IMG/VR virus record: IMGVR_UViG_3300024346_000045
Coordinates: 7,776-71,775 of that record
DNA length: 64,000 nt
DNA from: a virus
Strand: one strand, 5' to 3'
Shown: positions 4,524-57,917 of the stretch, piece by piece
How the letters are laid out: every line of letters begins with the position of its first letter
Numbering within the stretch: position 1 is the first letter of the stretch
Notes under the pieces: model-generated
What the model was told of the DNA's origin: nothing
The model's database searches: none
The model's input: only the letters and a program-made list of their open reading frames with translations
Program-made: the position numbers and the translations under genes

Positions 4524-4525
4524 TT

Positions 4526-40127: not shown

Positions 40128-40345
40128 ATTTAGATGAATTAGATTTACGCACATTACAAAAAGAAGCAGCAAGAGCATTAAGTGTAATGGAAGCTACTAA
40201 CAATAACATTTATAAGTATAATGTTCAAGCATACCATAATAGTCAAAATTGGTATAAAGCTGTTATTTTAGATTATGTTAAACAGCACGGTGATTTTCCT
40301 AGTAAAGTAGGGCCTGCTGCTAAAATTAAATTGGTGCTAGAATAA
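40124..40345 (+). CDS. hypothetical protein (73 aa)
   Basis: ATGA and TAATG coupling to neighbours. Confidence 0.65.
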   Translation: MNLDELDLRTLQKEAARALSVMEATNNNIYKYNVQAYHNSQNWYKAVILDYVKQHGDFPSKVGPAAKIKLVLE

Positions 40346-43986: not shown

Positions 43987-45307
43987 AAAAGCTATCGAAT
44001 GTTATTTCACCTTAGGTGGAATAAATTATAAAAACGGTTTTTCAACAAGTTGCCCTCAACAACCTGAGCAGTTTGTTCCGTTCGAACAAACTCTTAAGCC
44101 GAGTGAAATTTTTAACTCTGAACGATTTAAGAAACACAGACTAGAAATGATGAACGGTAAGTGGAGCAGAGGTTGCCACTTATGCAGAGATCCTGAGATG
44201 ATTGGAAGCCATTCTATGCGTCAGGATTATGTCCCAGTCACTAACTATTACGATCCTGCAACTGGAGCAGTTGACTTAAAAGGATTAAGACATGTTGAGT
44301 TAAGATTTAGTAACAGTTGTAACATGGCTTGTAAGCATTGTAGTGTTGTGTATTCAAGCGGGTGGGTTTCTAAACTTAAACATTATCAACCTGATGCAGA
44401 AGTAGAAAAACATAACCTATTGCAATTATTAAAAATGGAACACCGTCAACATGAGAACGACGAGGGCGAATTAGGATTATCTATTGCAGAAGCAGAATCA
44501 ATTGTACAAGATTTAATTGATAATTTTCCCGAGTTAGAAAAAGTTGAATTTGCAGGCGGGGAAGTTTTGTATCAGAAGCAATTTTTTCCTTGCTTGAAAA
44601 AATTAGCAGAGCATCCAAATGCTGAAAATATTTCCATTGGATTTCATACAAATTTTAATGCAAAGTTTGATCCTGTAGAGTTGTCTAAGTTGTTAATACC
44701 TTTTAAGTTTACAATTATTCATATGAGTTTAGATGCAGGAACCAACATATATCCTTATTTTAGGACAGGTAATTGGGAAACATTAAAAGATAATATCAGT
44801 AAATTTAGAGCAGTGAACAAGCGAGCAGTATTGTCTATTGTTTGTACTACTAGCGCATATCAAATAATGGATATTAAAAACGTATTCCAAAGTTTTCTAG
44901 AATTAGATGTTGACACTATTAATTCTGCAATGTGCTATAGCCCGATGTATATTAATCCGTCTATAATGAATATTAAATTCAGAGAAGATGTACTAGCAGA
45001 CATTGAAGAAACTAGGCAAATGATATTAGATGAACAAGAGAAACGATATGCTGATTTTGAAAAATACAAAGAGTTAAGAGCTTGGAAATCTAAATGGAAT
45101 AGATTTAACGACATACACATGGCTCTTAATGCCCTAAAAGAGATTGAAATTTATACATTAAACAATGCAATAGATTCGTCGTATTGGGAAGACTTCCAAG
45201 TATATGTTAGAAAGACAGACGAGATTTGGGGCCAGCAATTTAATGATTACATGACTAATTATAAAATGGTCGACGGCAAAATTGTAAGGGTGAAAAAAAA
45301 TGTTTAA
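43976..45307 (+). CDS. radical SAM enzyme with divergent N-terminal Cys domain
   Basis: ECY...TSCP...GCHLC, then ELRFSNSCNMACKHC and EFAGGE. Confidence 0.9.
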   Translation: MESKKAIECYFTLGGINYKNGFSTSCPQQPEQFVPFEQTLKPSEIFNSERFKKHRLEMMNGKWSRGCHLCRDPEMIGSHSMRQDYVPVTNYYDPATGAVDLKGLRHVELRFSNSCNMACKHCSVVYSSGWVSKLKHYQPDAEVEKHNLLQLLKMEHRQHENDEGELGLSIAEAESIVQDLIDNFPELEKVEFAGGEVLYQKQFFPCLKKLAEHPNAENISIGFHTNFNAKFDPVELSKLLIPFKFTIIHMSLDAGTNIYPYFRTGNWETLKDNISKFRAVNKRAVLSIVCTTSAYQIMDIKNVFQSFLELDVDTINSAMCYSPMYINPSIMNIKFREDVLADIEETRQMILDEQEKRYADFEKYKELRAWKSKWNRFNDIHMALNALKEIEIYTLNNAIDSSYWEDFQVYVRKTDEIWGQQFNDYMTNYKMVDGKIVRVKKNV

Positions 45308-46145
45308 TATTTCTAATAGTTTATATAACCAGTTTAATGCAGTTTATCCAAACAAAGCAGGCTTAATACGCCTTCATAGAATTAACGGATTAGATATACC
45401 ATTTAGCCCTTTATGGAAAAACATTGGGATTAATTTGTCAGGTGGTGCTGATAGTGGGTGTTTAGCATTTTTGTTGTGTAAAATTATTACAGAACATAAT
45501 TATGACTGTAAAATACATATTATTACATTTACTAGGTGTTGGAATACAAGACCTTGGCAAGGACACATTTCTATGAACGTGTTTAATAAGTTAAACGAAA
45601 TGTATCCGGGATTAATTGTTAATAGGCATATCAATTATATTCCTCCAGAATTAGAATGGGGAGCGACGGGAGGTCCTATCCTTGATGGAAGAAGTGGTGA
45701 TCAGATTGAGGGATCTAGTTTTAATTCTTATATTGCTTATACACAAAAATTAAATGCTGTGTTTAATGCTACTAGTAAAAATCCCGGAACCGACGGATTT
45801 GATACACGATTGTTAAAACGAGACAAAGATGCCGAAGATGGTTCGCTTGACGATGTTATGTTTATTAGAAAGGGTACGTTCTTTTGCCATCCTTTTAGAT
45901 TTGTAAAAAAAGATTGGATCGTCGCACAATATTTTATTCATAACGCAGAAGATTTATATAACACTACTAGAAGTTGCGAAGGGGATATAAACGACGGTAA
46001 AGCAAAAGAAATATTGCCTAACGGGTTAGATGATTATAAACCTGGAATGTTCATTCCGTTGTGCGGCGCTTGTTTTTGGTGTTTAGAACGAAGCTGGGCC
46101 GAAAGTAAATTAGATGAAACTATTACACAATTCGATCATGTCTGA
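45300..46145 (+). CDS. QueC-like PP-loop ATPase (adenylating enzyme)
   Basis: INLSGGADS PP-loop; TRSCE...CGACFWCLER Zn-binding tail as in the QueC family. Confidence 0.7.
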   Translation: MFNISNSLYNQFNAVYPNKAGLIRLHRINGLDIPFSPLWKNIGINLSGGADSGCLAFLLCKIITEHNYDCKIHIITFTRCWNTRPWQGHISMNVFNKLNEMYPGLIVNRHINYIPPELEWGATGGPILDGRSGDQIEGSSFNSYIAYTQKLNAVFNATSKNPGTDGFDTRLLKRDKDAEDGSLDDVMFIRKGTFFCHPFRFVKKDWIVAQYFIHNAEDLYNTTRSCEGDINDGKAKEILPNGLDDYKPGMFIPLCGACFWCLERSWAESKLDETITQFDHV

Positions 46146-47448
46146 AACATTTTGTCCAATACCTTGGAATTTTCAAGCAATCCGTGCCAACGGCGATGTA
46201 CGTGTATGCTGTCAAGCTAACGTAACTAAAAATCAAGGAGTTATTCGTAAAGATGATGGTAGTGCATATAACGCCGGCCGCGACAATCTAGACGAAGCTC
46301 GTAATGCTAACCTAATGAAAGTCATTCGCCTCAATATGCTAAATGGTGTATGGAGTGAAGAATGTGGAAGATGCAAAGCTGAAGAAGAAAACGGTTTAGT
46401 TAGTCGCCGTAGTTATGAAAACCAGCAATGGAATATGGATATGTACAAAGTCGTAAACCAAACCGGTGCCGACGGTAGTATAAATTCTATAAATTTTCCT
46501 GTAGTTTATTACGATTTACGTTTTGGAAATTTTTGTAATTTAAAATGTCGTATGTGCGGTCCTACTGATAGCAATGCATGGTATGACGATTGGATTAAAT
46601 TAACTGGTAGTAATAAATTTAAAGATACTTCTGGTGTAATGGAAATTGTTGACAACGATGTCCCTGCGTTTAATTGGCCAGAATATGAACCTTTTTGGCA
46701 ACAGCTAGAAGCTAATATTCATAACATTGAACATGTATATTTTGCCGGCGGCGAACCGATGCTTATTGAACGTCATTACGATTTTCTCGAAAGATGCGTT
46801 GAAGCAGGTGCTTCTAAACACATTGTAGTGGAATACAACACAAACATGAGCACCTTGCCTAGCAGAGTAACAAAATTGTGGACTCATTTTAAACAAGTTA
46901 GAGTCGGTGCAAGTGTTGACGGCATGGGTAGTATGCAAGAATATCAACGCAGTCCATCTAAATGGGAAAAGACTTTAGACAATTTGCGTAAGGTTGATGC
47001 ATTGCCAGGTAATATAATGGCTTGGCTAGCATTTACTGTTACTGCGTACAATGTTAATCACTTAATAGATTTCATGAAATGGAAATTAAGTGAAAGCGGA
47101 TTTAACAAAATTAATTCAACTATCCGACGTCCGATAGTAACTCACCATGTAGCACATCATCCTAAGCATCTTAACATAAGAGTGTTGCCAGCTGCATATA
47201 AAAAAGAACTAACAGAAAATTTTAAAAAATTTGTCCAATGGGTAAAAGAAAATAATTATCCTATTCATGTAATAAAACAAGCAGAAGATATTTCTAACGG
47301 CATTATATCTTATATGAACAGCGAAAGTTATTATAACGAGCATTGGAACGAATTTGTTTCTTATACACAAAAATTAGATGCAATTCGCGGCGAAGAATTA
47401 ACTTCAGTAGAACCAAAGTTTAAGGAATTTTATGGAACCAACGTTTGA
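46138..47448 (+). CDS. radical SAM enzyme with N-terminal twitch-like domain
   Basis: FCPIPW...RVCC...CGRC, then DLRFGNFCNLKCRMC and YFAGGEP; start moved to ATG 46138. Confidence 0.92.
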   Translation: MSETFCPIPWNFQAIRANGDVRVCCQANVTKNQGVIRKDDGSAYNAGRDNLDEARNANLMKVIRLNMLNGVWSEECGRCKAEEENGLVSRRSYENQQWNMDMYKVVNQTGADGSINSINFPVVYYDLRFGNFCNLKCRMCGPTDSNAWYDDWIKLTGSNKFKDTSGVMEIVDNDVPAFNWPEYEPFWQQLEANIHNIEHVYFAGGEPMLIERHYDFLERCVEAGASKHIVVEYNTNMSTLPSRVTKLWTHFKQVRVGASVDGMGSMQEYQRSPSKWEKTLDNLRKVDALPGNIMAWLAFTVTAYNVNHLIDFMKWKLSESGFNKINSTIRRPIVTHHVAHHPKHLNIRVLPAAYKKELTENFKKFVQWVKENNYPIHVIKQAEDISNGIISYMNSESYYNEHWNEFVSYTQKLDAIRGEELTSVEPKFKEFYGTNV

Positions 47449-48145
47449 TACAGTTGACTTGTTAGACGGAAATATTTTTCAAGTGACATGGGATGTAGGA
47501 AGAAGATGCAATTACGATTGCAGCTATTGCCCTAGTCACAGGCATGACAATTTTAGCCCACATGCTAGTTTAGAAGATCTTAAAAAGAATAGTGACTTTG
47601 TATTAAAGTACATTGACTTGTATATGACATACAGAGATTACAAGTGGGCAAGTATAAATTTTACTGGTGGGGAACCGACTGTAAATCCTAATTTTATTGA
47701 ATTCTCTAAATACATAAAAGAACGTTATAGTTTAGAGTACGCATATAAATGGCGTTGCATTTTTACCTTAACTAGCAATGGTGCAATGAGTAAAAAAATG
47801 GCAGATGCAGTTATGGAAAATTTTAATCATATAACTATAAGTTACCATGCAGAAGCTGATAATACTATTAAACAACAAGTAAGGGATAGAATGTTACAAA
47901 TTAGCAAAAATGGACCGGCTAACGACTGTAATTTATCTATCAATGTGATGTTTCATGCACAGTACTTTGACGAATGTAAAGAGTTATGTAATTTTTTAGA
48001 TGACAATAATGTTGCATATGTTCCTAGAGTTATCGGAGAAGAACCCGATAGTCGTAGTAATTTTGCACATCAGTATACTGAAGATCAGTTACAGTGGTTT
48101 AAAGATTATTGGGAAAATAATACTAAAAAGGTTCAAGAAGCATGA
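47432..48145 (+). CDS. radical SAM enzyme, core domain only
   Basis: WDVGRRCNYDCSYC; FTGGEPT; TSNG; ISYH; ends without an auxiliary domain. Confidence 0.9.
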   Translation: MEPTFDTVDLLDGNIFQVTWDVGRRCNYDCSYCPSHRHDNFSPHASLEDLKKNSDFVLKYIDLYMTYRDYKWASINFTGGEPTVNPNFIEFSKYIKERYSLEYAYKWRCIFTLTSNGAMSKKMADAVMENFNHITISYHAEADNTIKQQVRDRMLQISKNGPANDCNLSINVMFHAQYFDECKELCNFLDDNNVAYVPRVIGEEPDSRSNFAHQYTEDQLQWFKDYWENNTKKVQEA

Positions 48146-48618
48146 CCGAACAGAAAAAAGAATTAGGTTTAAAAATCGGAAGACCGTGCTGCGGTAGCAG
48201 AACTATGTGTTTAAGTAAAGACGGCGATGATAGGAAAAGTAAGTTTGTTGATTACAGAGAATTTAAAGGATGGCTTTGTAGTGTAAATTGGTTTTTTATG
48301 CATATCGAACAGCAAACTGATACGGTTTATCACCACCAGACTTGTCAGGCACAGTTCGGAAAAAGTCGTGGACCTATAGGAAAGCTATCGGAGGGTGATA
48401 AAATTTTAGCTGAATTAGAAGCTAATTTAAAAGCCGGTACTATGCCTACAATCGTGTGTCCTAAACACACTTGTGGATGCGGGCTGTGTGCTCCTAAAAG
48501 TATGGACAAAGAAAAGTACAAAACGGTTTTATTTAATCATGTTGACAAAGATGTTTTTAGAAATAGCATGACCGAAGAAGTTAGTATTCCTAAAAAAATA
48601 GTGTGGATTGAAAAATGA
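48142..48618 (+). CDS. stand-alone Cys-rich SPASM/twitch-like Fe-S domain
   Basis: RPCCGSRTMC...FKGWLCSV...TCQ...CPKHTCGCGLC; matches the FKGWECSS...C...C..C tail of 51787. Confidence 0.7.
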   Translation: MTEQKKELGLKIGRPCCGSRTMCLSKDGDDRKSKFVDYREFKGWLCSVNWFFMHIEQQTDTVYHHQTCQAQFGKSRGPIGKLSEGDKILAELEANLKAGTMPTIVCPKHTCGCGLCAPKSMDKEKYKTVLFNHVDKDVFRNSMTEEVSIPKKIVWIEK

Positions 48619-48663
48619 AAATTGATAACAAACTTTTAACAAATAATTTAGGAAAACTATAAT

Positions 48664-49779
48664 ATGGAATATAAACATCGTTGTCTGTTGCCATTTCATC
48701 ATATAGCAATTAGACCAAATAATCAAGTTTATCCTTGTTGTCAGTTTAGGCACGAACACACTCCTAAAGATTTACATCTAGATTATTCTGATGTGTTTAA
48801 TCATCCATTCATGGAAGAACTTCGAGAACATATGATAAAAGATATTCCGCATCCGGGATGTGATATGTGCTATAAGCAAGAAGAAATGAGTAACGGTTCG
48901 CACAGTATGCGATTAGATTTTGCAAAAGATCTAGGATTCGAAATACCTGACAAACCAGTTCTCACGCACGTCGACTTAGCATTAAGCAATGTATGTAATA
49001 ATAGATGTAGGATGTGCAATCCGGAATTAAGCACTAATTGGTACAGCGATGCTAAAAAATTAGGTGCTGAATTTTTTCCTCCTATACAATCAGGTATTAT
49101 TAACAGCAAAAGAATTCTCGACGAGTATGATTTAAAGAGTTTGCGTTTTCTAAAATTAATCGGCGGTGAGCCATTAATGGAACAAGACAAATTCATTGAT
49201 TTATTAAAAAGATGCGATTTACCTAAATTAAGAATATTACTAGCTACTAATACAACTATTATCCCAAAGCCGGAATTAGTTGAGTTGTTAAAACAATGCA
49301 AAGTAGTTTGGGTTAATTTAAGTGTTGATGCGTTCGGCCCTTTAAATGAATTCTTACGCAAAGGTAGTAAATGGGAAAATGTTACTAATGTAATTGAATG
49401 GTTTGGGAACACATTTCCGAGAAATACTAAAATTCACGGTATTATTTCAATATACAACATTAACAATTTTTATCTATTAGAAAATTATATACACACACAT
49501 CCTACACTATGGAATAAAGTGTCATGCGAATGGCAAATGGTAGACGGACCAAATTGGATGCAACCTGCTAATTTGCCTAAACCAGTTAAAGAAAAGATTA
49601 TGAAAAAAATAGAAACGTTAGCTTCGCCTCATGCATATAACTTAGTAAGAACAGAATTAGAAAAAGAAGGCGACTTTAAATTGTTTTTAGATAAAGATAA
49701 AAAATTAAATGATCTTCGAAACGAGGATTGGAAAATGCTGAACACAGATCTGTGCGAAATGTTAACGGAGTTTCTTTAA
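48664..49779 (+). CDS. radical SAM enzyme with N-terminal twitch-like domain
   Basis: RCLLPF...YPCC...CDMCY, then DLALSNVCNNRCRMC and LIGGEP. Confidence 0.92.
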   Translation: MEYKHRCLLPFHHIAIRPNNQVYPCCQFRHEHTPKDLHLDYSDVFNHPFMEELREHMIKDIPHPGCDMCYKQEEMSNGSHSMRLDFAKDLGFEIPDKPVLTHVDLALSNVCNNRCRMCNPELSTNWYSDAKKLGAEFFPPIQSGIINSKRILDEYDLKSLRFLKLIGGEPLMEQDKFIDLLKRCDLPKLRILLATNTTIIPKPELVELLKQCKVVWVNLSVDAFGPLNEFLRKGSKWENVTNVIEWFGNTFPRNTKIHGIISIYNINNFYLLENYIHTHPTLWNKVSCEWQMVDGPNWMQPANLPKPVKEKIMKKIETLASPHAYNLVRTELEKEGDFKLFLDKDKKLNDLRNEDWKMLNTDLCEMLTEFL

Positions 49780-50456
49780 TGAATATTCTGTGTCTTGGGT
49801 GCAGCTGGACTGCTGGCATCAATGCGCAGCCGTATAATTGGGTAGAAGCGCTGGCTAAAATAACTCCTGAACATACATTTTATAATTTTGCTTTATGCGG
49901 TAGTAGCCTACTACATAGTATATGGATTCTTGAAACAACGTTAAAACAGCAATGGGATATAATAAAAATTGGAAAGATTGATAAAGTTATTTTTCAAGTC
50001 ACAAACGAAGGGCGATTAACATATTATAAAAATCTCGATAACGTTAGACTAGCAGATTACGTAGAAAAATCAAAAACTATTTCTAATTATAATATATTAA
50101 ATTTGCCTTGGCAACAAATATGTCAACTTAATTACGGAGTTTTACATCCAGAAAATGCGTCTATTCACCACAGTAGTTGGAATGAAATATACAAATTTGC
50201 TACAGACTACTATTCTAAATTAACTAGACATCAGCATTTTGATATTGAACATAAAGCATTAGTAGAATATGCAAGATCACATTCTGATTTTATGTTTTTA
50301 CATAGACGCGACGATATAGGAATTCCTCAGATAGATTCTATACAAGATATTTTAGGTGATGACCAATTTAATAATTTTGTTATTGATAACGGCGGCCATT
50401 TTAATATTTTAGGAGCAAACTGGCAAGCTTCTTATATTAAGAGTTTGCTATTATGA
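49779..50456 (+). CDS. SGNH/GDSL-like hydrolase or acyltransferase
   Basis: ILCLGCSWTAG (block I), NFALCGSS (block II), DNGGHFN (block V); start moved to the TAATG-coupled ATG at 49779. Confidence 0.65.
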   Translation: MNILCLGCSWTAGINAQPYNWVEALAKITPEHTFYNFALCGSSLLHSIWILETTLKQQWDIIKIGKIDKVIFQVTNEGRLTYYKNLDNVRLADYVEKSKTISNYNILNLPWQQICQLNYGVLHPENASIHHSSWNEIYKFATDYYSKLTRHQHFDIEHKALVEYARSHSDFMFLHRRDDIGIPQIDSIQDILGDDQFNNFVIDNGGHFNILGANWQASYIKSLLL

Positions 50457-51170
50457 GTTGTAAATAGTCATATTAAAATACGAGGTTACTGGTTTTGTTG
50501 GGTTTACAAACTTCTTTGTATCAAAAAACATATTTCCAGTTCTTACCCAATCTGCAATCATAGAAGAAAATATTAAATTATTTTCTTGATTTAAATGGCA
50601 ATGTCTTATATCAGCCCATGGCCATTTATCACTTTTTAAATTGTAGTAATCTATATCCATCTGAGAAATGTGACCTAAAGTAAAAGTTGAGTTCCAACCT
50701 TCTTCACCTGTAACATAAAAGCAAGGAATTAACAAAGCATCGGGTCTAATATTTCTTATTTCTTTTATTAATAATTTGTGAAATAATAAGTCTCTTTCTG
50801 GACATGCTATGTATTTGTAATAATCTTCAACAGCGTTATTAACTTTATTTAAATATGCATTTGATTTATACTGCGATTCGACAACATCTCGTATACCATG
50901 GTATCCATTTACATGTTGTAGTGGAGGATCACAATTCATATATTCTTCAGGTAATGGAAGTAAAATTCTTCCAGGACCAGTTACTAAAAAAACAATTTTT
51001 TCAAATTTACCATGATGTTTTAAAAATTCATTATAGCTGTAGTGCAAAGAGCTTCCATTAACTCCGTAGGAAACTGTTGGATATTGATCGTTTAAGTATT
51101 GGTGCCACGGTCTACCTATACCATGATCGTGACTTGCTGCGTAGCTATCTCCAAAGACTGCTATTTTCAT
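50451..51170 (-). CDS. SGNH/GDSL-like hydrolase or acyltransferase
   Basis: IAVFGDSYA; YGVNGSS; DIRHCHLN; AGGGGAG RBS. Confidence 0.7.
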   Translation of the reverse strand: MKIAVFGDSYAASHDHGIGRPWHQYLNDQYPTVSYGVNGSSLHYSYNEFLKHHGKFEKIVFLVTGPGRILLPLPEEYMNCDPPLQHVNGYHGIRDVVESQYKSNAYLNKVNNAVEDYYKYIACPERDLLFHKLLIKEIRNIRPDALLIPCFYVTGEEGWNSTFTLGHISQMDIDYYNLKSDKWPWADIRHCHLNQENNLIFSSMIADWVRTGNMFFDTKKFVNPTKPVTSYFNMTIYNS

Positions 51171-51207
51171 AAGCTCCCCTAATAAATTATATGATAAGAT
51201 CTCTGTT

Positions 51208-51215
51208 TATAAATA
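51208..51215 (+). promoter_or_regulatory. T4 consensus late promoter
   Basis: Exact TATAAATA in the intergenic gap, 18 nt before the SDR ATG with a GGAG RBS. Confidence 0.7.
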
Positions 51216-51233
51216 TATCTGTTCGGAGTATTT

Positions 51234-51794
51234 ATGAAAATTTTAATCACAGGAAATTGTGAATACGGTTTAGCCAAAGAGTTATTTAAAATTTACCCAA
51301 CTGCTACATTTTTATCTCGTAAAACAGGCGTAGATTTAACTTCTATCGACGGACAAATTAAGTGTGCAGAATTAGTGTTAGAACATGATGTATTTGTTAA
51401 TTCGTCAGCTCTTTGGAAATTTAACCAGACAGTATTATTAGATCAAGTGTACAAATTATGTGTTGAAAAAAATCATAGTCCTCATATTATTTCTGTTGGG
51501 TCTACTACTGATAGAGTTAAGAACGGTAAGGCTTGGCTATATAATGCTGAAAAAAAGGCCCTTCGAGACTATTCTAATACACTAGCATTATCGGGTGTTT
51601 GGGGAGAAACTCCTAAGGTAACATATATTAGTTTTGGAACTCTTACTAATAATCAACATAAACATATAGGTAGAAAGTGCATGGATATTTCCCTAGCAGC
51701 TGAATATATTAAATGGGTTATAGAACAACCGAGACACATTAATATTAATGAAATAAGTATAGACCCGATGCAAGGAAAAAACTGGAATGAGTGA
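51234..51794 (+). CDS. short-chain dehydrogenase/reductase-like protein
   Basis: KILITG N-terminus, DVFVNSS, ISVGS, YxxxK (YNAEK). Confidence 0.75.
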   Translation: MKILITGNCEYGLAKELFKIYPTATFLSRKTGVDLTSIDGQIKCAELVLEHDVFVNSSALWKFNQTVLLDQVYKLCVEKNHSPHIISVGSTTDRVKNGKAWLYNAEKKALRDYSNTLALSGVWGETPKVTYISFGTLTNNQHKHIGRKCMDISLAAEYIKWVIEQPRHININEISIDPMQGKNWNE

Positions 51795-52959
51795 TTTAAG
51801 TTGGAGTGCGTACGATTTTACAAAAATACCATATGACGATATTGTGCGTGTAGGGCAACGTACATTGTTGTACAGAGATTTGTTTACTGTAAGTTGGTTA
51901 CTAGGCAGATTTTGTAATTATAGATGTAGTTATTGTTGGCCTTATGCACGTAGTGACAGTAAGGATCATAGACCTACTGAACTATGTTTAAAAACAATTG
52001 ACGAAATTAAAAGACAGGCTAGAGAACGTAATTTTAATAGTTTTCATTTTAGTCTAAGTGGAGGTGAACCGACTTTTCATCCCGGGTACACAGACATTTT
52101 AGAATATCTCAATAATGATGTAGAAAATACAAATTACACTAGTGTTCATATGACAAGCAATATGAGCCGATCATTAAAGTGGTTTGAAGAAAAATATTGT
52201 CCTGCGGTTAGTAAATTTCATCGAGCTAGTATTACTGCAAGTTTACACACCGAGCATGTTGATACAAAAGAAAAAATGCAAGACTTTGCAGATAAACTTA
52301 TATTGTGTCAGCAACATGATGTTCAGGTAACGATCAATATGGTTATGGTTCCAGAATGGTTTGATAGAGATTTTGATAATGCATTGTTCTTCCATAATCA
52401 AGGAATTAATGTTACATTGAAGCCGCAAAGCGATCCCACTGCCAGTCGAGTAGTTGATGGTTATACTCCTGAAATGCTAAAGAGGTTGCATAACGGTATG
52501 CCTCAACGTGCGTTCACAGAAGACAAAGCTAAACGTACTATGTTAGTAAAACGTCCTGAGCCTAGATTTTATAAAACACCCGATCCTATCTATCAAGATG
52601 CCCAAGCTAAAATTCCTCAACACTTTCAAGTAGAGTTTAGAGACAAAGAGCACAAGATTTGGTACATGGATCAAGCGGAAAGATTTAATGCATTTAACTT
52701 TAACAAGTTTAAAGGATGGGAATGTTCTAGTGGTTATAGAGGAATAATTATTAGAGAACCTGACGGTAGTGTAAAACGTAGTTACAGTTGTAGTGATGTT
52801 CCTCTGGGAAACATCGAAACTGGATTTCAACTATTTGACGGTCCTAAACCCTGTATTAGTGAAAGCTGTGTAAGTTCAGCAGACAGTAAGATTCCTAAGA
52901 GAGCTCCGGGGACTAAATTACCTTTATGGCCAGGAGATAAAACTTTTGAAAAAATTTAA
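51787..52959 (+). CDS. radical SAM enzyme with C-terminal Cys domain
   Basis: WLLGRFCNYRCSYC; LSGGEPT; TSNMSR; ASLH; FKGWEC...SC...PC...C. Confidence 0.92.
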   Translation: MSDLSWSAYDFTKIPYDDIVRVGQRTLLYRDLFTVSWLLGRFCNYRCSYCWPYARSDSKDHRPTELCLKTIDEIKRQARERNFNSFHFSLSGGEPTFHPGYTDILEYLNNDVENTNYTSVHMTSNMSRSLKWFEEKYCPAVSKFHRASITASLHTEHVDTKEKMQDFADKLILCQQHDVQVTINMVMVPEWFDRDFDNALFFHNQGINVTLKPQSDPTASRVVDGYTPEMLKRLHNGMPQRAFTEDKAKRTMLVKRPEPRFYKTPDPIYQDAQAKIPQHFQVEFRDKEHKIWYMDQAERFNAFNFNKFKGWECSSGYRGIIIREPDGSVKRSYSCSDVPLGNIETGFQLFDGPKPCISESCVSSADSKIPKRAPGTKLPLWPGDKTFEKI

Positions 52960-53596
52960 TAATAGGCTAGATATTCCTGGAATGACTTTTCCTAGGGAGC
53001 TCGATATATTATCTAATATTGCAAGTTTAGTTCCCGAAGGAGGAAAAATATTAGAAATTGGATCTTGCTTTGGCAGAAGCGCTCATGCATTATATACAGG
53101 AAAAAAAGAAACTGTAAAACTAACTTGTTTAGATTTATGGGGAGATACTATACCTTTTCCTGAAAATTCTTATCACGGAAGCAAAGAATTACTTAATGAT
53201 GCAATTAATATTTCTTTTGAAAGACAAAATTCTAGATATGGATTCGAATACATATTAGGTAGCGAAATTATTAATGATATAGAAATAATACAAGATTCCA
53301 GTTCTAATTTAAAAGACTTTAATTTTGATTTAGTTTTTATAGACGGAGATCATAACTATAGTAGTGTATCGACTGATATAAACAACTTTGTTTTTAATTC
53401 TAATACTTTAATTTTAGGTGATGATGCTAATCAGTCTAATTGGGACGTAATAAAAGCAATATGGGATAATAAAAGAAACAGAACGCTAATAGTTCCTAGC
53501 GGACAAGATGTTAAATTTTTTGCACTAATACCGCCTAACGGTTATTGGGTTGACCATTCAAACAGCATATTAGAGATATTAAGATATGAATTTTAA
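52946..53596 (+). CDS. class I SAM-dependent methyltransferase (Methyltransf_24-like)
   Basis: ILEIGSCFGRS; CLDLW; FDLVFIDGDHNY; ILGDD. Start codon uncertain (TTG). Confidence 0.8.
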   Translation: MKKFNNRLDIPGMTFPRELDILSNIASLVPEGGKILEIGSCFGRSAHALYTGKKETVKLTCLDLWGDTIPFPENSYHGSKELLNDAINISFERQNSRYGFEYILGSEIINDIEIIQDSSSNLKDFNFDLVFIDGDHNYSSVSTDINNFVFNSNTLILGDDANQSNWDVIKAIWDNKRNRTLIVPSGQDVKFFALIPPNGYWVDHSNSILEILRYEF

Positions 53597-54176
53597 GTTA
53601 ACTTCTTTTGATCGCCTTCTTAAAATAAATGTTGATTTTGATATTGAAAGAAATGAGTTAATATCTCTTATTGAAAAAGAAACGACATGGGAACATCACG
53701 GTACTCGGTCTTATTTGCAAACAGTTCAAAATAACAGTCTTAATTCGATAAGAAATCACTTAATGAGTAATACAATTACATTGATGTTGTTAGAGGAAAT
53801 TTATAAGTTACACCCTCAATTAAAAGAGCAATGGGGATTAACATTTACAGAAATGTATAATAAATCTTTAACCAATGTTTATTTTTGTAGAGATATGCCC
53901 GGGCACAATACCGGGTTACACTTAGATGCACTCAGATTGCCTTTTACAGGAATGATATTTTTAACTGAAAAAGATGATGAATTAATGTCTACTTATTTTT
54001 ATACAGATAGCAATAAAAATAATTCATTTAGAATGACAACAAATTACGGGGACGGATGGTTTCAAGCTAACTCGCACAATTCGTGGCATGAGGGCGGAAA
54101 CAATACAGATATAGTTAGGTATGCTATCATAATAGAAATTAATCCTAATTGGGAAAATAATAATTCTAGGAATTAA
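53586..54176 (+). CDS. 2OG-Fe(II) oxygenase-like protein
   Basis: HLD (HxD)...SWHEG...VRY facial triad plus 2OG-binding Arg. Confidence 0.75.
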   Translation: MNFKLTSFDRLLKINVDFDIERNELISLIEKETTWEHHGTRSYLQTVQNNSLNSIRNHLMSNTITLMLLEEIYKLHPQLKEQWGLTFTEMYNKSLTNVYFCRDMPGHNTGLHLDALRLPFTGMIFLTEKDDELMSTYFYTDSNKNNSFRMTTNYGDGWFQANSHNSWHEGGNNTDIVRYAIIIEINPNWENNNSRN

Positions 54177-54178
54177 AA

Positions 54179-54883
54179 ATGAAAATTGATTTTTTCGGTC
54201 ACAGTATTTGCGGAAGAAGGACTAATCTTGACCGTCCTAAAACCTTCGCTGATATAATAGTTGAACAATATCAAGCATCTAATAGATGGTTTGGATTTGG
54301 AAACGGTTCAGAAGAAAGAATTTTATATTATTTGAAAAAAGCTGAAACTCCTAACATTGCTATTATCTTTCATAGCGATCCTGCATTTTTCTTTACTCCG
54401 TCGTTGTCGTGTGACTATCATAGATTAAATGAACACGATTTAAAAGAAAAATTTATCTACGCATTACCTAAATTTTATCCTAATCGAAAAATAGATAAAA
54501 TATTTGTAGAGAATGAAGCTTATGAAGAAATAGATGCAGAAGTTGCTAGAACAGCATTTTTAAACTATTACGATTTTTTTACAACACCTGAAGTTAATAA
54601 AAATAGATTTTATGGTGCGTTAATACAGATTGATCAATATTGTACACATAAAAAAATTCCAGTTATACATTGTCCTAAATCTCCGACTCATATACCTTCT
54701 TGGTTTAAATTTACTAGCGGAATAGTTGACTATGAATTAGGATTGAGTCAGAATGATAATCATCCTTTTAGGGCTTCTTATGGAAAATCTGATAATGCTG
54801 TAACAAAAGAAGGTAATGAACAAATTGCAAAAAAGTTAATCGAATATATTGATCAACTATTAATTTCAAAGGATAAAAAATGA
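54179..54883 (+). CDS. degenerate SGNH-like protein
   Basis: IDFFGHSIC in block I position; GNGSEERI; C-terminal DNAVTKEGN. Confidence 0.55.
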   Translation: MKIDFFGHSICGRRTNLDRPKTFADIIVEQYQASNRWFGFGNGSEERILYYLKKAETPNIAIIFHSDPAFFFTPSLSCDYHRLNEHDLKEKFIYALPKFYPNRKIDKIFVENEAYEEIDAEVARTAFLNYYDFFTTPEVNKNRFYGALIQIDQYCTHKKIPVIHCPKSPTHIPSWFKFTSGIVDYELGLSQNDNHPFRASYGKSDNAVTKEGNEQIAKKLIEYIDQLLISKDKK

Positions 54884-55587
54884 AAATTGATTTTTTCGGA
54901 CATAGTATTTGCGGAAAACGATCAGGTCCTGATCGTCCTAAGACATTTGTCGATATGCTTGTAGAGCATTATCAAGCGGGCAATCAATGGATAGGCTTTG
55001 CTAACTGTTCAGAAGAACGTCTCTTATATACTATGAAAAAAACTAAAGACATAGACGTTGCAATTATTTTTCATAGCGATCCTTCTTTTATCTACACTCC
55101 TAGCTTTGAATGCGATTATCATAGACTAAGCGAACAGCAGCTAAATGAAAAATTTATCTATGATGTTCCAAAATTTCATCCAGAATGGAAGAAAGATAAT
55201 TTGTTTGCACAAAACGACGAGCGAATTGAGCTAGATGAGGAAACTGCAAAAAACGCATTCTTGACTTATTACAATTATTTTACAACTCCGGAAGTTAACA
55301 GAAATAGGCACTACGGAGCATTAATTCAAATTGATCAACTATGTGCAGCAAAAAACATAAAAGTTATACACTGTCCTAAATCAAGAAAAGATATACCTCA
55401 ATGGTTTAAATTTACTACAGGATTAGTTGATTGGGACATAGCAAGTATGCAAAATGATGGTAGTAAGTATTCTGTATCTTATAATAAAGTAGACAATGCT
55501 ATTTCAGAAGAAGGAAACAGAATAATTTATGAAAAATTTGTAAAGTATATTGATCAGCTAGTTAACCAATCAACTAACAACGGGTGA
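54880..55587 (+). CDS. degenerate SGNH-like protein (tandem duplicate of 54179)
   Basis: Collinear with 54179: MKIDFFGHSICG, SEER, IIFHSDP, CDYHRL, FTTPEVN, YGALIQIDQ, VIHCPKS, WFKFT, DNA..EGN. Confidence 0.55.
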   Translation: MKIDFFGHSICGKRSGPDRPKTFVDMLVEHYQAGNQWIGFANCSEERLLYTMKKTKDIDVAIIFHSDPSFIYTPSFECDYHRLSEQQLNEKFIYDVPKFHPEWKKDNLFAQNDERIELDEETAKNAFLTYYNYFTTPEVNRNRHYGALIQIDQLCAAKNIKVIHCPKSRKDIPQWFKFTTGLVDWDIASMQNDGSKYSVSYNKVDNAISEEGNRIIYEKFVKYIDQLVNQSTNNG

Positions 55588-56795
55588 AGATAATCTTTAA
55601 AATTTTGATTTCTTGATAAATCAAAATAGCCTATCTCTTTTAACATCAACTCTTTGTTTTCTTGATTGTCACTAATAGCGTTATCAATTTGTTGAATTAA
55701 ATTTTGAATCTTATGATCAACATCGCCTCGTTCATTATATAAAAATGGTAAAACGTTTTCCTTAGCAACAGATAAAATGCTAATAGGTAAACGTTTTATA
55801 CTAGTTCCTCGATCTAATCCGTATGCTTCAGAAAAAGTTATAGAACTTTTATTCCAGATAGATCTTATCCATTTTATATATTCAGGAATAACTAATAGAT
55901 TTAACGATGTTAATACTAGTGCAACTCTAAAAAAATCTACAGATTTTATCTTTGAAAAATAATTCCTTAAGGTTAAATCTAACTCTTCGAAGTTTGCAGG
56001 ATACCTAATATAATCATAAGTTTTACCAAACCCGTCTATACTAAAATTATGAACATTTTTCTTAAAGTGGTTTAATTTTTCAATTATCTCGTCGTTAATT
56101 AATGTTCCATTGGTATGGAAAGTTAATATGGTATTTTTTGCATTGCCTGTTTCTATGTATCGATCAATTAATTTAACAACTTTTTTATCATAGAATGGCT
56201 CGCCACCACTGGCCTTTATAACTTTAATTTTATCAGTATTTTCCATTAACCAGTTCCATTGAATAGAGTCAGTTGCTCTAATCGGTTCGGGTTTTATATG
56301 GGCCCAAAATTTTGTTTCTTGAGAAATTTGAAAGTTCATCTCTCCCTCCATCTTCTCAAAAAAATCCCAATCTATCATTAGTGAATTACTAGACATAGGT
56401 GTACACATCCTACATCTTAAATTACATGCTGTGCTGGCAGTGATATCTACTACCGATAATCCTGTATCTTCATAACCGTAGTCATCATCTGAAAACAACC
56501 TAAATGAATTGAGTCCTCTAGATTCTTGATCCCAGCATACTTTACAAGCATCGTCTTTAACACCAGTTAACAAATTATTTCTTAAATCGTTAATTCTAGG
56601 GTGGTTAAAAATTTCATCAGGGGTTAGATCTTTTATATTATTGATACCGATATTATTTACAGATCCATCTTGATTTCTAATGTTACCCATCATGCAACAT
56701 GGCCATGCAGCTTGTAGTGTGGATCCTTGCCACTCTTTCATTGCAAGTTCTCTAAATGGATATTTGCAATATGTATTATTTTTTTCAGGTTTCAT
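55554..56795 (-). CDS. radical SAM enzyme with N-terminal twitch-like domain
   Basis: YCKYPF...WPCC...CKVCW, then CNLRCRMC, ASGGEP and HTNGT. Confidence 0.92.
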   Translation of the reverse strand: MKPEKNNTYCKYPFRELAMKEWQGSTLQAAWPCCMMGNIRNQDGSVNNIGINNIKDLTPDEIFNHPRINDLRNNLLTGVKDDACKVCWDQESRGLNSFRLFSDDDYGYEDTGLSVVDITASTACNLRCRMCTPMSSNSLMIDWDFFEKMEGEMNFQISQETKFWAHIKPEPIRATDSIQWNWLMENTDKIKVIKASGGEPFYDKKVVKLIDRYIETGNAKNTILTFHTNGTLINDEIIEKLNHFKKNVHNFSIDGFGKTYDYIRYPANFEELDLTLRNYFSKIKSVDFFRVALVLTSLNLLVIPEYIKWIRSIWNKSSITFSEAYGLDRGTSIKRLPISILSVAKENVLPFLYNERGDVDHKIQNLIQQIDNAISDNQENKELMLKEIGYFDLSRNQNFKDYLHPLLVDWLTS

Positions 56796-56799
56796 GATT

Positions 56800-56813
56800 T
56801 ATTTAACTAAATA
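56800..56813. promoter_or_regulatory. divergent pair of putative late promoters
   Basis: TAAATA on minus (56805-56800) toward the rSAM gene and CTAAATA on plus (56807-56813) toward the tRNA. Confidence 0.5.
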
Positions 56814-56849
56814 GAATACCGGTTGCATGGAGTTCGTCCCTAGCCGGGC

Positions 56850-56926
56850 AGGGGTGTAGCGCAGCCCGTTAGCGCACTAGTCAAGGGGACTAGAGGTCGC
56901 TGGTTAAAATCCAGCCACCCCGACCA
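56850..56926 (+). tRNA. non-canonical tRNA-Pro-like gene, anticodon AGG, encoded CCA
   Basis: Cloverleaf: GGGGTG/CACCCC acceptor, GCGC/GCGC D-stem, CTAGT/ACTAG anticodon stem with loop CA-AGG-GG, GCTGG/CCAGC T-stem, then G72 A73 CCA. Confidence 0.8.
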
Positions 56927-56928
56927 TT

Positions 56929-57603
56929 TCACAGTTCCAGTGGGAACACTTTTGCAATTACTTCTCCACACGCCTTGGCAATGTCCATATGTTCTTTTTG
57001 TGTACCGTTTTCCCTACGCAAGTTAATGTAATGAATCCAACTACGGATAGTACCGTTCATGTACATGCGACTTACTGTAAGACCTTCCGGAAGAACAGCA
57101 CGGGCTTGTTCTTTAGCAATACCGTTAGCAATAGCCCACTTATACTCTTTTTCTACTGCAAACAATACTCGCTTTTGGGCACGTTCCCATTCGATAGCCA
57201 GTAAACGTTGGCTTTCGTCGTTCATATCAAACTCGACACTGTTCTGTCTATTCTTTGTATCCTGAAAACGTGCTTCTCGGACTACAAATGCCTTACTTAA
57301 TTCTGCTGTAGGGTCAGCATAGCGTTGGCTAAACTCTTGAAAGCTAAATGAACGATGACGTAGGATTTGTCGAGCAATATCTCTAGTAGTTTCAATCTCA
57401 ATACAAGCTGAAACCATTTCAAGAGGGCTCCAATGCTGATGCTTGATCAAGTACTTAATCAATTTTTCGCTTGTTTCTGTATTGAATTGATTAGCAGGGT
57501 TACTTACACGAGCACAGTAAGCTACAAGATCTAGGGCATCTTCAATGCCTTGATTTGTAAACTCTGGGGTCGGATTGCTATATGATATTAGAGTAACTTT
57601 CAT
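56929..57603 (-). CDS. thyX: flavin-dependent thymidylate synthase
   Basis: HWSPLE; ThyX motif RHRSFSFQEFSQRY; EQARAVLP; TQKEH. Confidence 0.95.
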   Translation of the reverse strand: MKVTLISYSNPTPEFTNQGIEDALDLVAYCARVSNPANQFNTETSEKLIKYLIKHQHWSPLEMVSACIEIETTRDIARQILRHRSFSFQEFSQRYADPTAELSKAFVVREARFQDTKNRQNSVEFDMNDESQRLLAIEWERAQKRVLFAVEKEYKWAIANGIAKEQARAVLPEGLTVSRMYMNGTIRSWIHYINLRRENGTQKEHMDIAKACGEVIAKVFPLEL

Positions 57604-57917
57604 TTTAACTTTCTGTTATTTAAAAATTTTTTTGTGTTTCTTTCGATGTCTTTTTTAATTCTATCTGTGTCAAGTCTAAAATCAATACTTTCTATTCTAT
57701 CCTCGTATTCGGAAATCATTTCTCTCATATGCTTTTCAAAAGAATCCCAATTGGCCTTAGATTCTTGTTTAATTTCTATTTCCCAGATTTTATTGTTTTT
57801 AAATGTTACTTTAACCGCATGAAGATACGATAGAGGAACAACATTAAGAGTTACCTCTCCGAATACTTCAGGCCAACGATCAATTACATCTTTGGGAAAG
57901 GATTTCCCGTTAGTCAC
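57600..57917 (-). CDS. hypothetical protein
   Basis: 105-aa ORF with ATGA overlaps at both ends. Confidence 0.7.
   Translation of the reverse strand: MTNGKSFPKDVIDRWPEVFGEVTLNVVPLSYLHAVKVTFKNNKIWEIEIKQESKANWDSFEKHMREMISEYEDRIESIDFRLDTDRIKKDIERNTKKFLNNRKLK

What the first reader, a model, noticed from the sequence alone, without database searches (positions are those of the whole stretch)
56850..56926. tRNA-Pro(AGG)-like RNA with a compensatory U19-A56 elbow, A33 and an A1.G72 mismatch
Seen: all four stems are intact and CCA is encoded, yet near-invariant bases are altered: D-loop GG becomes GT and T-loop TTC becomes TTA (turning the G19-C56 tertiary pair into U19-A56), U33 becomes A, position 1 cannot pair with G72, and the wobble base is A34. 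Known: A34 is rare in bacterial tRNAs other than Arg(ACG); the E. coli ProRS identity elements G35, G36, G72 and A73 are all retained; a 1:72 mismatch disfavours EF-Tu binding in initiator tRNA. Inference: covariation argues against simple decay. It could be a non-ribosomal prolyl donor for the adjacent island, a decoy for anticodon nucleases, or a CCU-reading tRNA.
Basis: partly seen in the sequence, partly recalled or inferred. Interest (0 to 1): 0.75.

Follow-up and report, generated by a model that had tools for sequence, protein, structure and literature searches.

The report
Orphan odd proline tRNA in jumbo phage
A marine giant phage carries one extra proline tRNA gene with a re-paired elbow and a very unusual anticodon loop, but it is found only in this phage lineage, so it may be a working oddity or a recently captured gene starting to decay.

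Summary
Window 56850-56926 (+) is a real tRNA gene (ARAGORN Pro-AGG; Rfam 50.9 bits). 22 of 23 pairs are standard, CCA is encoded, and it has U19-A56, A33, A34 and A1.G72. Independent Logan contigs from two other runs reproduce it without a difference.

It belongs to the bacterial tRNA-Pro(GGG) lineage. Its anticodon stem is identical to that of a canonical tRNA-Pro(GGG) in Tunturiibacter phage Tunturi_5.

The host genome is a 72-kb fragment of a marine Rak2/Atu_ph07-like jumbo myophage. The gene is an orphan insertion in the thyX-radical-SAM spacer: 133 nt here, 4 nt in L135. It is absent from 80 thyX loci and 18 rSAM loci of relatives. Relatives carry canonical tRNA-Pro(UGG) in 25-31-gene tRNA arrays. 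No copy was found in viral, genome or metagenome contigs.

A33+A34 on a Pro-type body is the published hallmark of the translationally active tRNAProX family, but this gene fails four of that family's seven tested criteria.

Best reading (0.45): a still-active, possibly weak, CCU/CCC-reading tRNAPro. Main rival (0.33): a decaying passenger. No support was found for a link to the radical-SAM island.

The parts
56850..56926 (+). tRNA-Pro(AGG)-like gene, 77 nt with encoded CCA. Features: A1.G72, G15:C48, C17a, G18, U19, A21, C32, A33, A34, G35, G36, G37, G38, G49, A56, A57, A73.
   Evidence: ARAGORN. Rfam RF00005 50.9 bits. MFE cloverleaf. Pair counts. Reproduced in contigs of runs X4 and X5.
56812..56849 (+). 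G+C-rich 5' leader, probably acquired together with the tRNA. It contains a CCGG...CCGG inverted repeat around GGAGTTCGTCC. It has no counterpart in L135.
   Evidence: Alignments A1 and A2 and the sequence. No sigma-70-like promoter or terminator was found. No phage-database match to the leader. The boundary is approximate.
56929..57603 (-). thyX (flavin-dependent thymidylate synthase). Its stop codon lies 2 nt from the tRNA's CCA end, and it is transcribed opposite to the tRNA.
   Evidence: Pfam Thy1 E 7.1e-41. phrog_85. 64-92% identical homologues in 80 IMG/VR loci.
55554..56795 (-). Twitch-domain radical SAM gene, the last gene of the variable island. It is transcribed opposite to the tRNA.
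   Evidence: Pfam Radical_SAM. NCBIfam NF033640 at 228 bits against a cut-off of 170. Homologues in 18 IMG/VR loci.
39298..56795 (.). About 17.5-kb variable island of radical SAM paralogues plus a methyltransferase. It lies between a conserved 224-aa gene and thyX, and the tRNA sits at its right edge.
   Evidence: In L027, L028 and L032 the DNA after thyX continues with homology to window ~39285 and downwards. Pfam and NCBIfam.

Best explanation
This is a genuine tRNA gene of the bacterial tRNA-Pro(GGG) lineage. It was inserted, with about 37 nt of G+C-rich leader, into the otherwise 4-nt thyX-radical-SAM spacer of one marine Rak2-like jumbo myophage lineage.

Most likely it is still a working, possibly weak, elongator tRNAPro. 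Every mechanistic step below is inferred, not shown:
- It is cut out of a + strand read-through transcript.
- The U19-A56 pair closes the elbow in place of G19-C56.
- Host ProRS charges it through G35, G36, G37, G72, A73, G15:C48 and G49.
- Its unmodified A34 reads CCU and CCC, the first being the phage's commonest Pro codon.
- A33 is tolerated, as it is in the translationally active tRNAProX family, perhaps at the price of lower decoding efficiency.

Shown here: the gene, its anatomy, its lineage, its orphan status and its reproducibility. Whether A1, A33 and A34 are adaptive or the first lesions of decay is not resolved.
For: Gene and anatomy:
- Real tRNA, with 22 of 23 pairs standard and 19:56 changed on both sides.
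- The T-stem and acceptor 3' strand are identical to those of canonical tRNA-Pro genes found in 28 bacterial or archaeal stretches. So there is no T-stem change of the kind expected for EF-Tu avoidance.
- The anticodon stem is identical to Tunturi_5 tRNA-Pro(GGG). The loop is CAAGGGG against CTGGGGG.

Identity and decoding:
- The bacterial Pro identity set listed in PMC9976931 (passages) is met except for U17a and the C1 partner.
- AGG-anticodon tRNAs in E. coli are not inosine-modified and read CCU and CCC about equally (PMC11066159 passages, citing Chen 2002).
- tRNAProX tRNAs carry A33 and A34 and still decode in E. coli (PMC10404621 and PMC11415595 passages).
- CCT is 389 of 866 Pro codons.

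Parallels and reproducibility:
- U19-A56 recurs in three other viral tRNAs.
- A compensated A54/U58 swap occurs in tRNA-Asp and tRNA-Thr of relatives' arrays.
- The sequence is identical in contigs of two further runs.
- Its 50.9 bits lies inside the 29.6-63.8-bit range of tRNAs in the L017 and L023 arrays.
Against: - It is a singleton. 0 of 80 thyX loci and 0 of 18 rSAM loci of relatives have a tRNA within 4-5 kb. L135 has the same gene order with a 4-nt spacer.
- No copy was found by pattern scans: viral contigs (the T-arm scan found only L001's tRNA-Met), genome contigs (the T-stem/acceptor scan, which also allowed A56, found 28 stretches, all C56) and metagenome contigs. So there is no conservation evidence.
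- It scores 17-20 bits below canonical tRNA-Pro genes with the same T-stem, which score 67.4-70.9 bits.
- C1:G72 is called a strong ProRS determinant in E. coli (PMC9976931 passage), and it is broken here.
- U33 is almost universal. The role of A33 is described as unexplored (PMC11415595 passage).
- The gene lies antisense to both neighbours, 2 nt from the thyX stop codon, with no sigma-70-like promoter or terminator.
- Relatives carry a canonical tRNA-Pro(UGG) in 3 of 4 arrays. None of the 87 tRNA sequences printed from their arrays has A56.
Confidence: 0.45

Rival explanations
1. Decaying or neutral passenger. A tRNA-Pro(GGG)-type gene, already carrying the compensated U19-A56 elbow, was captured by illegitimate recombination at a hypervariable junction. 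It has since picked up two or three uncompensated lesions (C1>A, and UG>AA at 33-34). It is unexpressed or non-functional and simply has not been deleted yet.
For: - Unique to this lineage.
- No copy elsewhere.
- Antisense to both neighbours, with no promoter-like site.
- The three uncompensated changes hit near-invariant or identity positions.
- Relatives supply Pro decoding with canonical tRNA-Pro(UGG).
- About 17-20 bits below canonical relatives.
Against: - No stem pair other than 1:72 is broken, and 19:56 is compensated.
- Each lesion has a published functional precedent: A34, and A33+A34.
- The gene persists unchanged in contigs of two other runs, although these may be one sampling campaign.
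- Two or three events are too few to tell selection from drift.
Confidence: 0.33
2. Defence-evasion tRNA. The altered anticodon loop (A33, A34), and perhaps the altered elbow and acceptor end, make it resistant to a host tRNA-targeting nuclease that depletes host tRNAPro. It would then either keep translation going or act as a decoy.
For: - There is a precedent that phage tRNAs carry anticodon-loop changes at nuclease recognition sites (PMC10264068 abstract and passages).
- Phage tRNAs that counter retron and PARIS effectors appear in the search listing.
- The changes cluster at positions 33-34, where several anticodon nucleases cut (recalled).
Against: - No nuclease specific for tRNAPro loops was identified here, and the host is unknown.
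- The gene is not shared by any relative, unlike the widely conserved evasion tRNAs in the cited work.
- Nothing in the flanks is defence-related.
Confidence: 0.12
3. RNA element rather than tRNA. The cloverleaf, or its complement in the thyX-rSAM mRNA on the - strand, serves as a processing, stability or insulation signal between the two genes.
For: It lies exactly between two co-oriented genes, 2 nt from the thyX stop codon. It is a very stable structure at -31.2 kcal/mol.
Against: - L135 and the other relatives do without it.
- No tRNA-like hit on the - strand even at E up to 10.
- Encoded CCA and intact identity elements are not needed for such a role.
Confidence: 0.05
4. Non-ribosomal prolyl donor for the adjacent radical SAM island, kept off the ribosome by A1.G72 and A33.
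For: - There is a precedent in the non-proteinogenic S. aureus tRNAGly species, which lack G18G19 and bind EF-Tu weakly (PMC4574755 passages).
- The gene is adjacent to an island containing eight ORFs with no Pfam family.
Against: - No Fem/GNAT, cyclodipeptide synthase, LanB/PEARL, L/F-transferase or MprF-type family in the 19 island ORFs scanned.
- Homologous rSAM clusters in 18 loci have no tRNA.
- The T-stem is that of ordinary tRNA-Pro.
- G18 is kept and 19:56 is repaired, unlike the precedent.
Confidence: 0.04
5. Sequencing or assembly artefact.
For: It is a single record, and the gene sits at a synteny break.
Against: Contigs from runs X4 and X5 bridge both junctions with 0 differences.
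Confidence: 0.01

Closest known systems
Canonical bacterial and phage tRNA-Pro(GGG), for example the one in Tunturiibacter phage Tunturi_5 (PP885688.1)
   Same: 84% identical over 76-77 nt. Identical anticodon stem and 3' loop half (GGGG). Same T-stem. G15:C48, G49, G72, A73 and encoded CCA.
   Different: The window has A1 instead of C1, a D-loop one nt shorter with U19 instead of G19, A33 instead of U33, A34 instead of G34, and A56 and A57 instead of C56 and G57.
tRNAProX family (tRNAProA/N/T) of Streptomyces and Kitasatospora with ProRSx (PMC10404621; review PMC11415595)
   Same: A tRNA-Pro-type body with A33 and A34 together, plus G72 and A73. That family shows such tRNAs are charged with Pro and decode on E. 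coli ribosomes.
   Different: The window has a Pro anticodon (AGG, not AGC/AUU/AGU), so it would not mistranslate. It has G15:C48 rather than A15:A48, A21 rather than G21, and A1.G72 rather than C1:G72. No ProRS-like gene was found in the record or in 5 relatives. It is a marine phage gene, not a soil actinomycete gene. Its anticodon arm matches an ordinary tRNA-Pro(GGG), so A33/A34 probably arose independently. The family's sequences are in figures and supplements that I could not see.
Salmonella proL G34A mutant and orthogonal AGG-anticodon tRNAs (Chen 2002 as cited in PMC11066159)
   Same: A34-G35-G36 on a tRNA read by bacterial ribosomes. No inosine, and CCU and CCC are read about equally.
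   Different: Those tRNAs keep U33, a canonical elbow and a paired 1:72.
Phage tRNAs with anticodon-loop changes proposed to escape anticodon nucleases (PMC10264068)
   Same: A phage-encoded tRNA whose loop differs from the cellular form at positions next to the anticodon.
   Different: Those are conserved across phage clusters and keep U33. No cognate nuclease is known here, and the gene is a singleton.
Non-proteinogenic tRNAGly of Staphylococcus aureus (PMC4574755)
   Same: The D-loop GG is altered, and it is a tRNA with a proposed role off the ribosome.
   Different: Those lose both G18 and G19 without repair and bind EF-Tu weakly. The window keeps G18, repairs 19:56 and keeps an ordinary tRNA-Pro T-stem.

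Membership tests
tRNA (Rfam RF00005) | Score above the gathering threshold, with a cloverleaf of four stems | tested here: met
   50.9 bits against 29. MFE is the cloverleaf. 20 of 21 stem pairs are standard.
tRNA (Rfam RF00005) | Conserved elbow G18, G19-C56 and U33 | tested here: not met
   G18 is present. 19:56 is U-A, so it is paired but not G-C. Position 33 is A.
Bacterial tRNA-Pro (ProRS identity set in PMC9976931) | A73, G72, G35, G36, G37, G15:C48, G49 | tested here: met
   All are present in the sequence. The list comes from the paper's table passage.
Bacterial tRNA-Pro (ProRS identity set in PMC9976931) | C1:G72 pair and U17a | tested here: not met
   A1 lies opposite G72. C1-G72 is found in 18 of the 18 other tRNA-Pro genes aligned. 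Position 17a is C.
Bacterial tRNA-Pro | Actually charged with proline | not testable with these tools
   Needs an aminoacylation assay.
tRNAProX (PMC10404621) | A33 and A34 | tested here: met
   The loop is CAAGGGG.
tRNAProX (PMC10404621) | G72 and A73 on a tRNA-Pro-like body | tested here: met
tRNAProX (PMC10404621) | C1:G72 signature pair | tested here: not met
   A1.G72.
tRNAProX (PMC10404621) | A15:A48 tertiary pair and G21 | tested here: not met
   G15:C48 and A21. The paper notes that some tRNAProT have A21.
tRNAProX (PMC10404621) | Non-proline anticodon (AGC, AUU or AGU) | tested here: not met
   The anticodon is AGG.
tRNAProX (PMC10404621) | Co-encoded ProRSx | tested here: not met
   No PF00587 match in the 71.8-kb record or in 5 related records, two of them 92-100% complete. 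The window's own genome is only about 20% complete, so absence is not proven.
Nuclease-evading phage tRNAs (PMC10264068) | Loop change at a known nuclease recognition or cleavage site, relative to the host tRNA | not testable with these tools
   The host and any cognate nuclease are unknown.
Non-proteinogenic aminoacyl donors (S. aureus tRNAGly type) | Partner aminoacyl-tRNA-dependent transferase encoded nearby | tested here: not met
   No such Pfam or NCBIfam family in 19 island ORFs. Eight ORFs have no Pfam family at all.
Integration-site (att) tRNA | Duplicated tRNA 3' segment at the far end of the island, or an integrase | tested here: not met
   No tRNA-derived direct repeat in 39000-57100. 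No integrase family among the ORFs scanned.

The most novel reading that the evidence does not exclude
The gene is a phage-made, deliberately re-engineered proline tRNA. It would be a Pro-anticodon counterpart of the A33/A34 tRNAProX class, one step (G36 to C or U) from the published mistranslating anticodons. Its loop (A33, A34), elbow face (U19-A56) and acceptor end (A1.G72) would all have been changed together. That would keep it chargeable by ProRS while making it invisible to a host tRNA-targeting defence, or while tuning it down in decoding. If so, compensated tertiary-pair swaps in jumbo-phage tRNAs would be a general evasion strategy rather than drift. Examples are U19-A56 here and in L001, L017 and L023, and A54/U58 in relatives' tRNA-Asp and tRNA-Thr.
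Probability: 0.12. Interest if true: 0.75.

Novelty: new variant of a known kind. Interest (0 to 1): 0.42.

Why it matters
If active, it would be a natural tRNA combining three features:
- a Watson-Crick-swapped elbow;
- A33/A34 on a proline body, otherwise described only in the actinomycete tRNAProX mistranslation system;
- an open 1:72 pair.

It would be a ready-made test case for three questions: how much of the "invariant" tRNA core the bacterial translation machinery really needs; what A33 does, which a 2024 review calls unexplored; and whether phage tRNAs change tertiary-pair faces to escape tRNA-targeting defences.

If it is decaying, it is an ordinary snapshot of the rapid gain and loss of tRNA genes in jumbo phages.

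Tried and rejected
- **Integration-site idea.** No tRNA-derived direct repeat between 39000 and 57100.
- **Upstream tRNA remnant or antisense tRNA.** cmscan at E up to 10 on 56600-57100 gave only the one tRNA.
- **Promoter and terminator scan of 56500-57200.** Nothing on the + strand. The scan covers sigma-70-type sites only.
- **Near-identical DNA in the phage collection.** No match for 55500-58500.
- **Pattern scans for copies.**
  - Exact D-arm in viral contigs: none.
  - Exact T-arm in viral contigs: only L001's tRNA-Met.
  - Anticodon arm with positions 33-34 free, in viral and genome contigs: none.
  - Two metagenome patterns: none.
  - GCGCR-N5-CAAGGGG-N15-TTMRAAT in viral contigs: two hits, L189 and L190, both non-tRNA chance matches.
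  - The window's own record and near-identical ones may be hidden from these scans.
- ** pattern.** Of the 26 hits, 14 stretches have no tRNA at all, and L025 has tRNAs only away from the match.
- **RNA evidence.** No RNA holder was listed among 24 runs. Runs X2 and X3 have no contig over the tRNA.
- **Real tRNAProX sequences for direct comparison.**
  - The original 2021 paper is not in the library.
  - Supplements are closed.
  - A class-level genome search gave no genus names.
  - The ProRS paralogue of G007 had no close homologue in 400 sampled genomes.
  - So the comparison rests on the features listed in the papers' text.

Full report
**The observation**

ARAGORN finds one tRNA in the window, tRNA-Pro(agg) at 56850-56926 on the + strand. 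Rfam's tRNA model scores it 50.9 bits (gathering score 29; E 5.7e-8 for 64 kb, both strands). It marks only the 1:72 pair as non-standard. It is also the only tRNA in the whole 71,775-base record. The minimum-free-energy fold is the cloverleaf: -31.2 kcal/mol, z -2.64, with 2 of 200 shuffles folding as well.

Reading the sequence against 18 canonical tRNA-Pro genes (alignment A3) gives the following:
- A1 opposite G72.
- D-loop AGCCCGTTA, giving G18 and U19.
- Anticodon loop CAAGGGG, giving A33, A34, G35, G36, G37.
- T-loop TTAAAAT, giving A56.
- A73 and CCA are encoded.

I counted pairs for the cloverleaf plus 15:48 and 19:56. Of the window's 23 pairs, 22 are standard. Pair 19:56 is G-C in 18 of 19 rows and U-A only in the window. 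Pair 1:72 is C-G in 18 of 19 rows and unpaired only in the window.

The bases are not an assembly slip. Logan contigs of run X4 (56709-57129) and run X5 (56645-56975) cross the gene and both flanks with no difference. Runs X2 and X3 have no contig over it. All four runs are labelled marine metagenomes of one year and may be one campaign.

**The genome**

The baseplate wedge protein is 34-36% identical to those of Atu_ph07, SCTP-2, RaK2 and similar jumbo myophages of 337-490 kb. PHROGs and Pfam give baseplate, tail-fibre, ThyX, MoxR-type ATPase, VWA and exonuclease genes. CheckV rates the record 20% complete. The window is therefore a fragment of a marine Rak2-like jumbo phage.

**Context**

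The tRNA lies between two - strand genes. One is a twitch-domain radical SAM gene at 55554-56795. The other is thyX at 56929-57603, whose stop codon is 2 nt from the CCA end.

I fetched 80 IMG/VR loci with ThyX 64-92% identical. None has a tRNA within 4 kb; ARAGORN's only calls there are permuted tmRNAs in L074 and L075.

In L027, L028 and L032 the DNA after thyX continues with homology to window ~39285 and downwards. So window ~39298-56928 is a roughly 17.6-kb variable island relative to those relatives, and the tRNA sits at its right edge.

I also fetched 18 loci with a homologue of the adjacent radical SAM gene. None has a tRNA within 5 kb. One of them, L135, has thyX followed by the radical SAM gene on the same strand with a 4-nt spacer. 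The window's spacer is 133 nt.

The extra DNA is the tRNA plus about 37 nt of G+C-rich leader in an A+T-rich region. The thyX C-terminus is conserved in L027, so the insertion starts right after its stop codon. There is no tRNA-derived direct repeat at the far end of the island. There is also no sigma-70-like promoter or terminator nearby.

**Lineage of the gene**

A scan of 185,579 species' genomes for the T-stem, T-loop (A or C at position 56) and acceptor 3' strand found 28 stretches. All have C56. The 18 full tRNA-Pro-type bodies extracted all start with C1; those that are ordinary tRNA-Pro also have G18 G19 and U33, while L111 carries G33 (see "Seen in passing"). Five of them tested score 67.4-70.9 bits, which is 17-20 bits above the window's gene.

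The best match in the phage collection is an unannotated tRNA-Pro(ggg) of Tunturiibacter phage Tunturi_5, 84% identical. Its anticodon stem is identical, its loop is CTGGGGG and its D-loop is CCTGGTTA. The window's gene is therefore a tRNA-Pro(GGG)-type gene. Its departures are:
- C1 to A.
- Loss or change of one D-loop G, giving U19.
- UG to AA at positions 33-34.
- C56 to A, which re-pairs with U19.
- G57 to A.

Its other differences from Tunturi_5 in stems are compensated: 5:68 and 13:22.

No other copy was found. The exact D-arm gave no viral-contig hit. The exact T-arm hit only L001's tRNA-Met. The anticodon arm with positions 33-34 left free gave nothing in viral or genome contigs. Two metagenome patterns gave nothing. 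A generic A33/A34 Pro-loop pattern in viral contigs gave two chance hits that are not tRNAs. Records of the window's own genome may be hidden from these scans.

**What relatives carry**

I searched five long related records. Four have tRNAs: 30, 6, 28 and 25 Rfam matches. These sit in arrays tens of kb from thyX, and ARAGORN also predicts tmRNAs in two of them. Three of the four arrays contain canonical tRNA-Pro(UGG). None of the 87 tRNA sequences printed from the arrays has A56. The window's phage therefore probably has its main tRNA set outside the fragment, and this gene is an extra.

**Can such a tRNA work?**

The evidence on function splits by feature.

- *Elbow.* The 19:56 pair presents a flat Watson-Crick face that ribosome, RNase P and T-box elements stack on (PMC4810234 passages). 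U-A keeps such a face. U19-A56 also occurs in three unrelated viral tRNAs with normal anticodon loops: L001 Met, L017 Gln and L023 Asp. One tRNA-like family in 8 loci has A56 with G19. My pattern forced the TTAAAAT loop, so this is not a frequency. In relatives' arrays, tRNA-Asp(GTC) and tRNA-Thr(GGT) have the T-loop ATCGTTA. That is A at 54 and U at 58, a swap of the other T-loop tertiary pair.
- *Identity.* The bacterial Pro set in PMC9976931 is A73, G72, G15:C48, U17a, G49, G35, G36 and G37. The window has all but U17a. The same paper calls C1:G72 a strong determinant in E. coli, and that pair is open here.
- *A34.* AGG-anticodon tRNAs in E. coli are not inosine-modified and read CCU and CCC about equally. 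The same was reported for a Salmonella mutant by Chen 2002, as cited in PMC11066159 (passages). CCT is 389 of 866 Pro codons in 53 ORFs of this record. A relative also has an A34 tRNA-Ser(ACT).
- *A33.* This is the oddest base. A33 together with A34 on a tRNA-Pro-like body is the published hallmark of the tRNAProX family of Streptomyces and Kitasatospora. Those tRNAs are charged with proline and decode on E. coli ribosomes. The review calls the role of A33 unexplored. [quoted passage not shown]

**Membership in tRNAProX**

Of the features the papers list, the window meets A33, A34, G72 and A73. It fails four:
- C1:G72.
- A15:A48 and G21.
- The non-proline anticodon.
- The neighbouring ProRSx. 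No PF00587 match was found in the record or in 5 relatives.

Its anticodon arm is that of an ordinary tRNA-Pro(GGG). I therefore do not file it as a member. I read A33/A34 as an independent occurrence, and the family as proof of principle that the combination is compatible with translation. I could not see the family's sequences, which are in figures and supplements.

**The adjacent island**

Among the ORFs in 39.3-56.8 kb, ten match the Pfam Radical_SAM family (nine above its cut-off). Four of the six scanned against NCBIfam pass the cut-off for NF033640, twitch-domain radical SAM. One ORF is a methyltransferase, and eight have no Pfam family. No known aminoacyl-tRNA-dependent enzyme family appears. 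Homologous clusters elsewhere lack the tRNA. The T-stem, which governs EF-Tu affinity (recalled), is the ordinary tRNA-Pro one. The prolyl-donor idea has no support beyond adjacency.

**Verdict**

The gene is real, correctly described, and reproducible. It also evolved under structural selection until recently: stems are compensated and the elbow is repaired. But it is an orphan with no conservation or expression evidence. Three uncompensated changes (positions 1, 33 and 34; perhaps two events) are too few to separate adaptation from early decay.

My odds are:
- 0.45 still-active CCU/CCC-reading tRNAPro.
- 0.33 decaying passenger.
- 0.12 defence-evasion tRNA.
- About 0.10 for the other readings together.

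**Seen in passing**

In an uncultured Actinomycetes MAG (G007, locus L191), a tRNA with a tRNA-Pro body carries G33 and the Thr anticodon CGU. That body has the same acceptor and T-arm as the window's gene. It lies 90 nt upstream of a second, apparently fragmented ProRS-like gene. This looks like a ProX/ProRSx-type pair with a different loop. No close homologue of that ProRS copy was found in 400 sampled genomes of its class.

Noticed in passing
window 39298-56795: About 17.5-kb island. Ten ORFs match Pfam Radical_SAM (nine above its cut-off), and four of the six scanned against NCBIfam exceed the NF033640 'twitch domain' cut-off. It also has a methyltransferase, eight ORFs with no Pfam family, and a tandem pair of 234/235-aa genes (701-nt period, 71-74% identical). 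L027, L028 and L032 lack it at this site. Other relatives have different radical SAM clusters beside thyX. What these enzymes modify is unknown.
   Followed up: partly
window 10092-24596 (+): A single 4834-aa open reading frame directly after the baseplate wedge gene. It was not analysed.
   Followed up: no
L191 6049-6123 (-), with the ProRS-like gene at L191 ~2766-5959 (-): In an uncultured Actinomycetes MAG, a tRNA with a tRNA-Pro body (C1:G72, A73) has G33 and the Thr anticodon CGU. It sits 90 nt upstream of a second, apparently fragmented ProRS-like gene. This resembles the tRNAProX/ProRSx arrangement, but with G33/C34 instead of A33/A34. No close homologue of that ProRS copy was found in 400 sampled genomes of the class.
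   Followed up: partly
L001 5612-5688 (-); L017 3067-3142 (+); L023 7758-7836 (-): Three other viral tRNAs (Met-CAT, Gln-CTG, Asp-GTC) have U at 19 and A at 56 with normal anticodon loops. L001's tRNA-Met shares 21 identical T-arm bases with the window's gene and has a C2.A71 mismatch.
   Followed up: partly
L183 4320-4394 and 13548-13621; L186 5287-5361 and 1720-1793: tRNA-Asp(GTC) and tRNA-Thr(GGT) in the arrays of two relatives have the T-loop ATCGTTA. That is A at 54 and U at 58, a swapped version of the U54-A58 tertiary pair.
   Followed up: no
L185 2238-2312, 7355-7450, 7466-7555 (all -): One relative (342 kb) carries a CTA-anticodon tRNA (amber-suppressor type; ARAGORN calls it 'Pyl') and two A34 tRNAs, Phe-AAA and Ser-ACT.
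   Followed up: no
L183 2059-2577; L187 1395-1731; L074 and L075 6375-6777: ARAGORN predicts permuted tmRNA genes in relatives. In L074 and L075 the prediction lies 1.7 kb downstream of thyX.
   Followed up: no
L004, L006, L011, L012, L019, L021 (Lys-TTT) and L016, L026 (odd loop): A tRNA-like family in eight viral or prophage records has the A56 T-loop TTAAAAT but keeps G18 G19, so 19:56 would be G.A. Two members have a loop that ARAGORN cannot assign.
   Followed up: no
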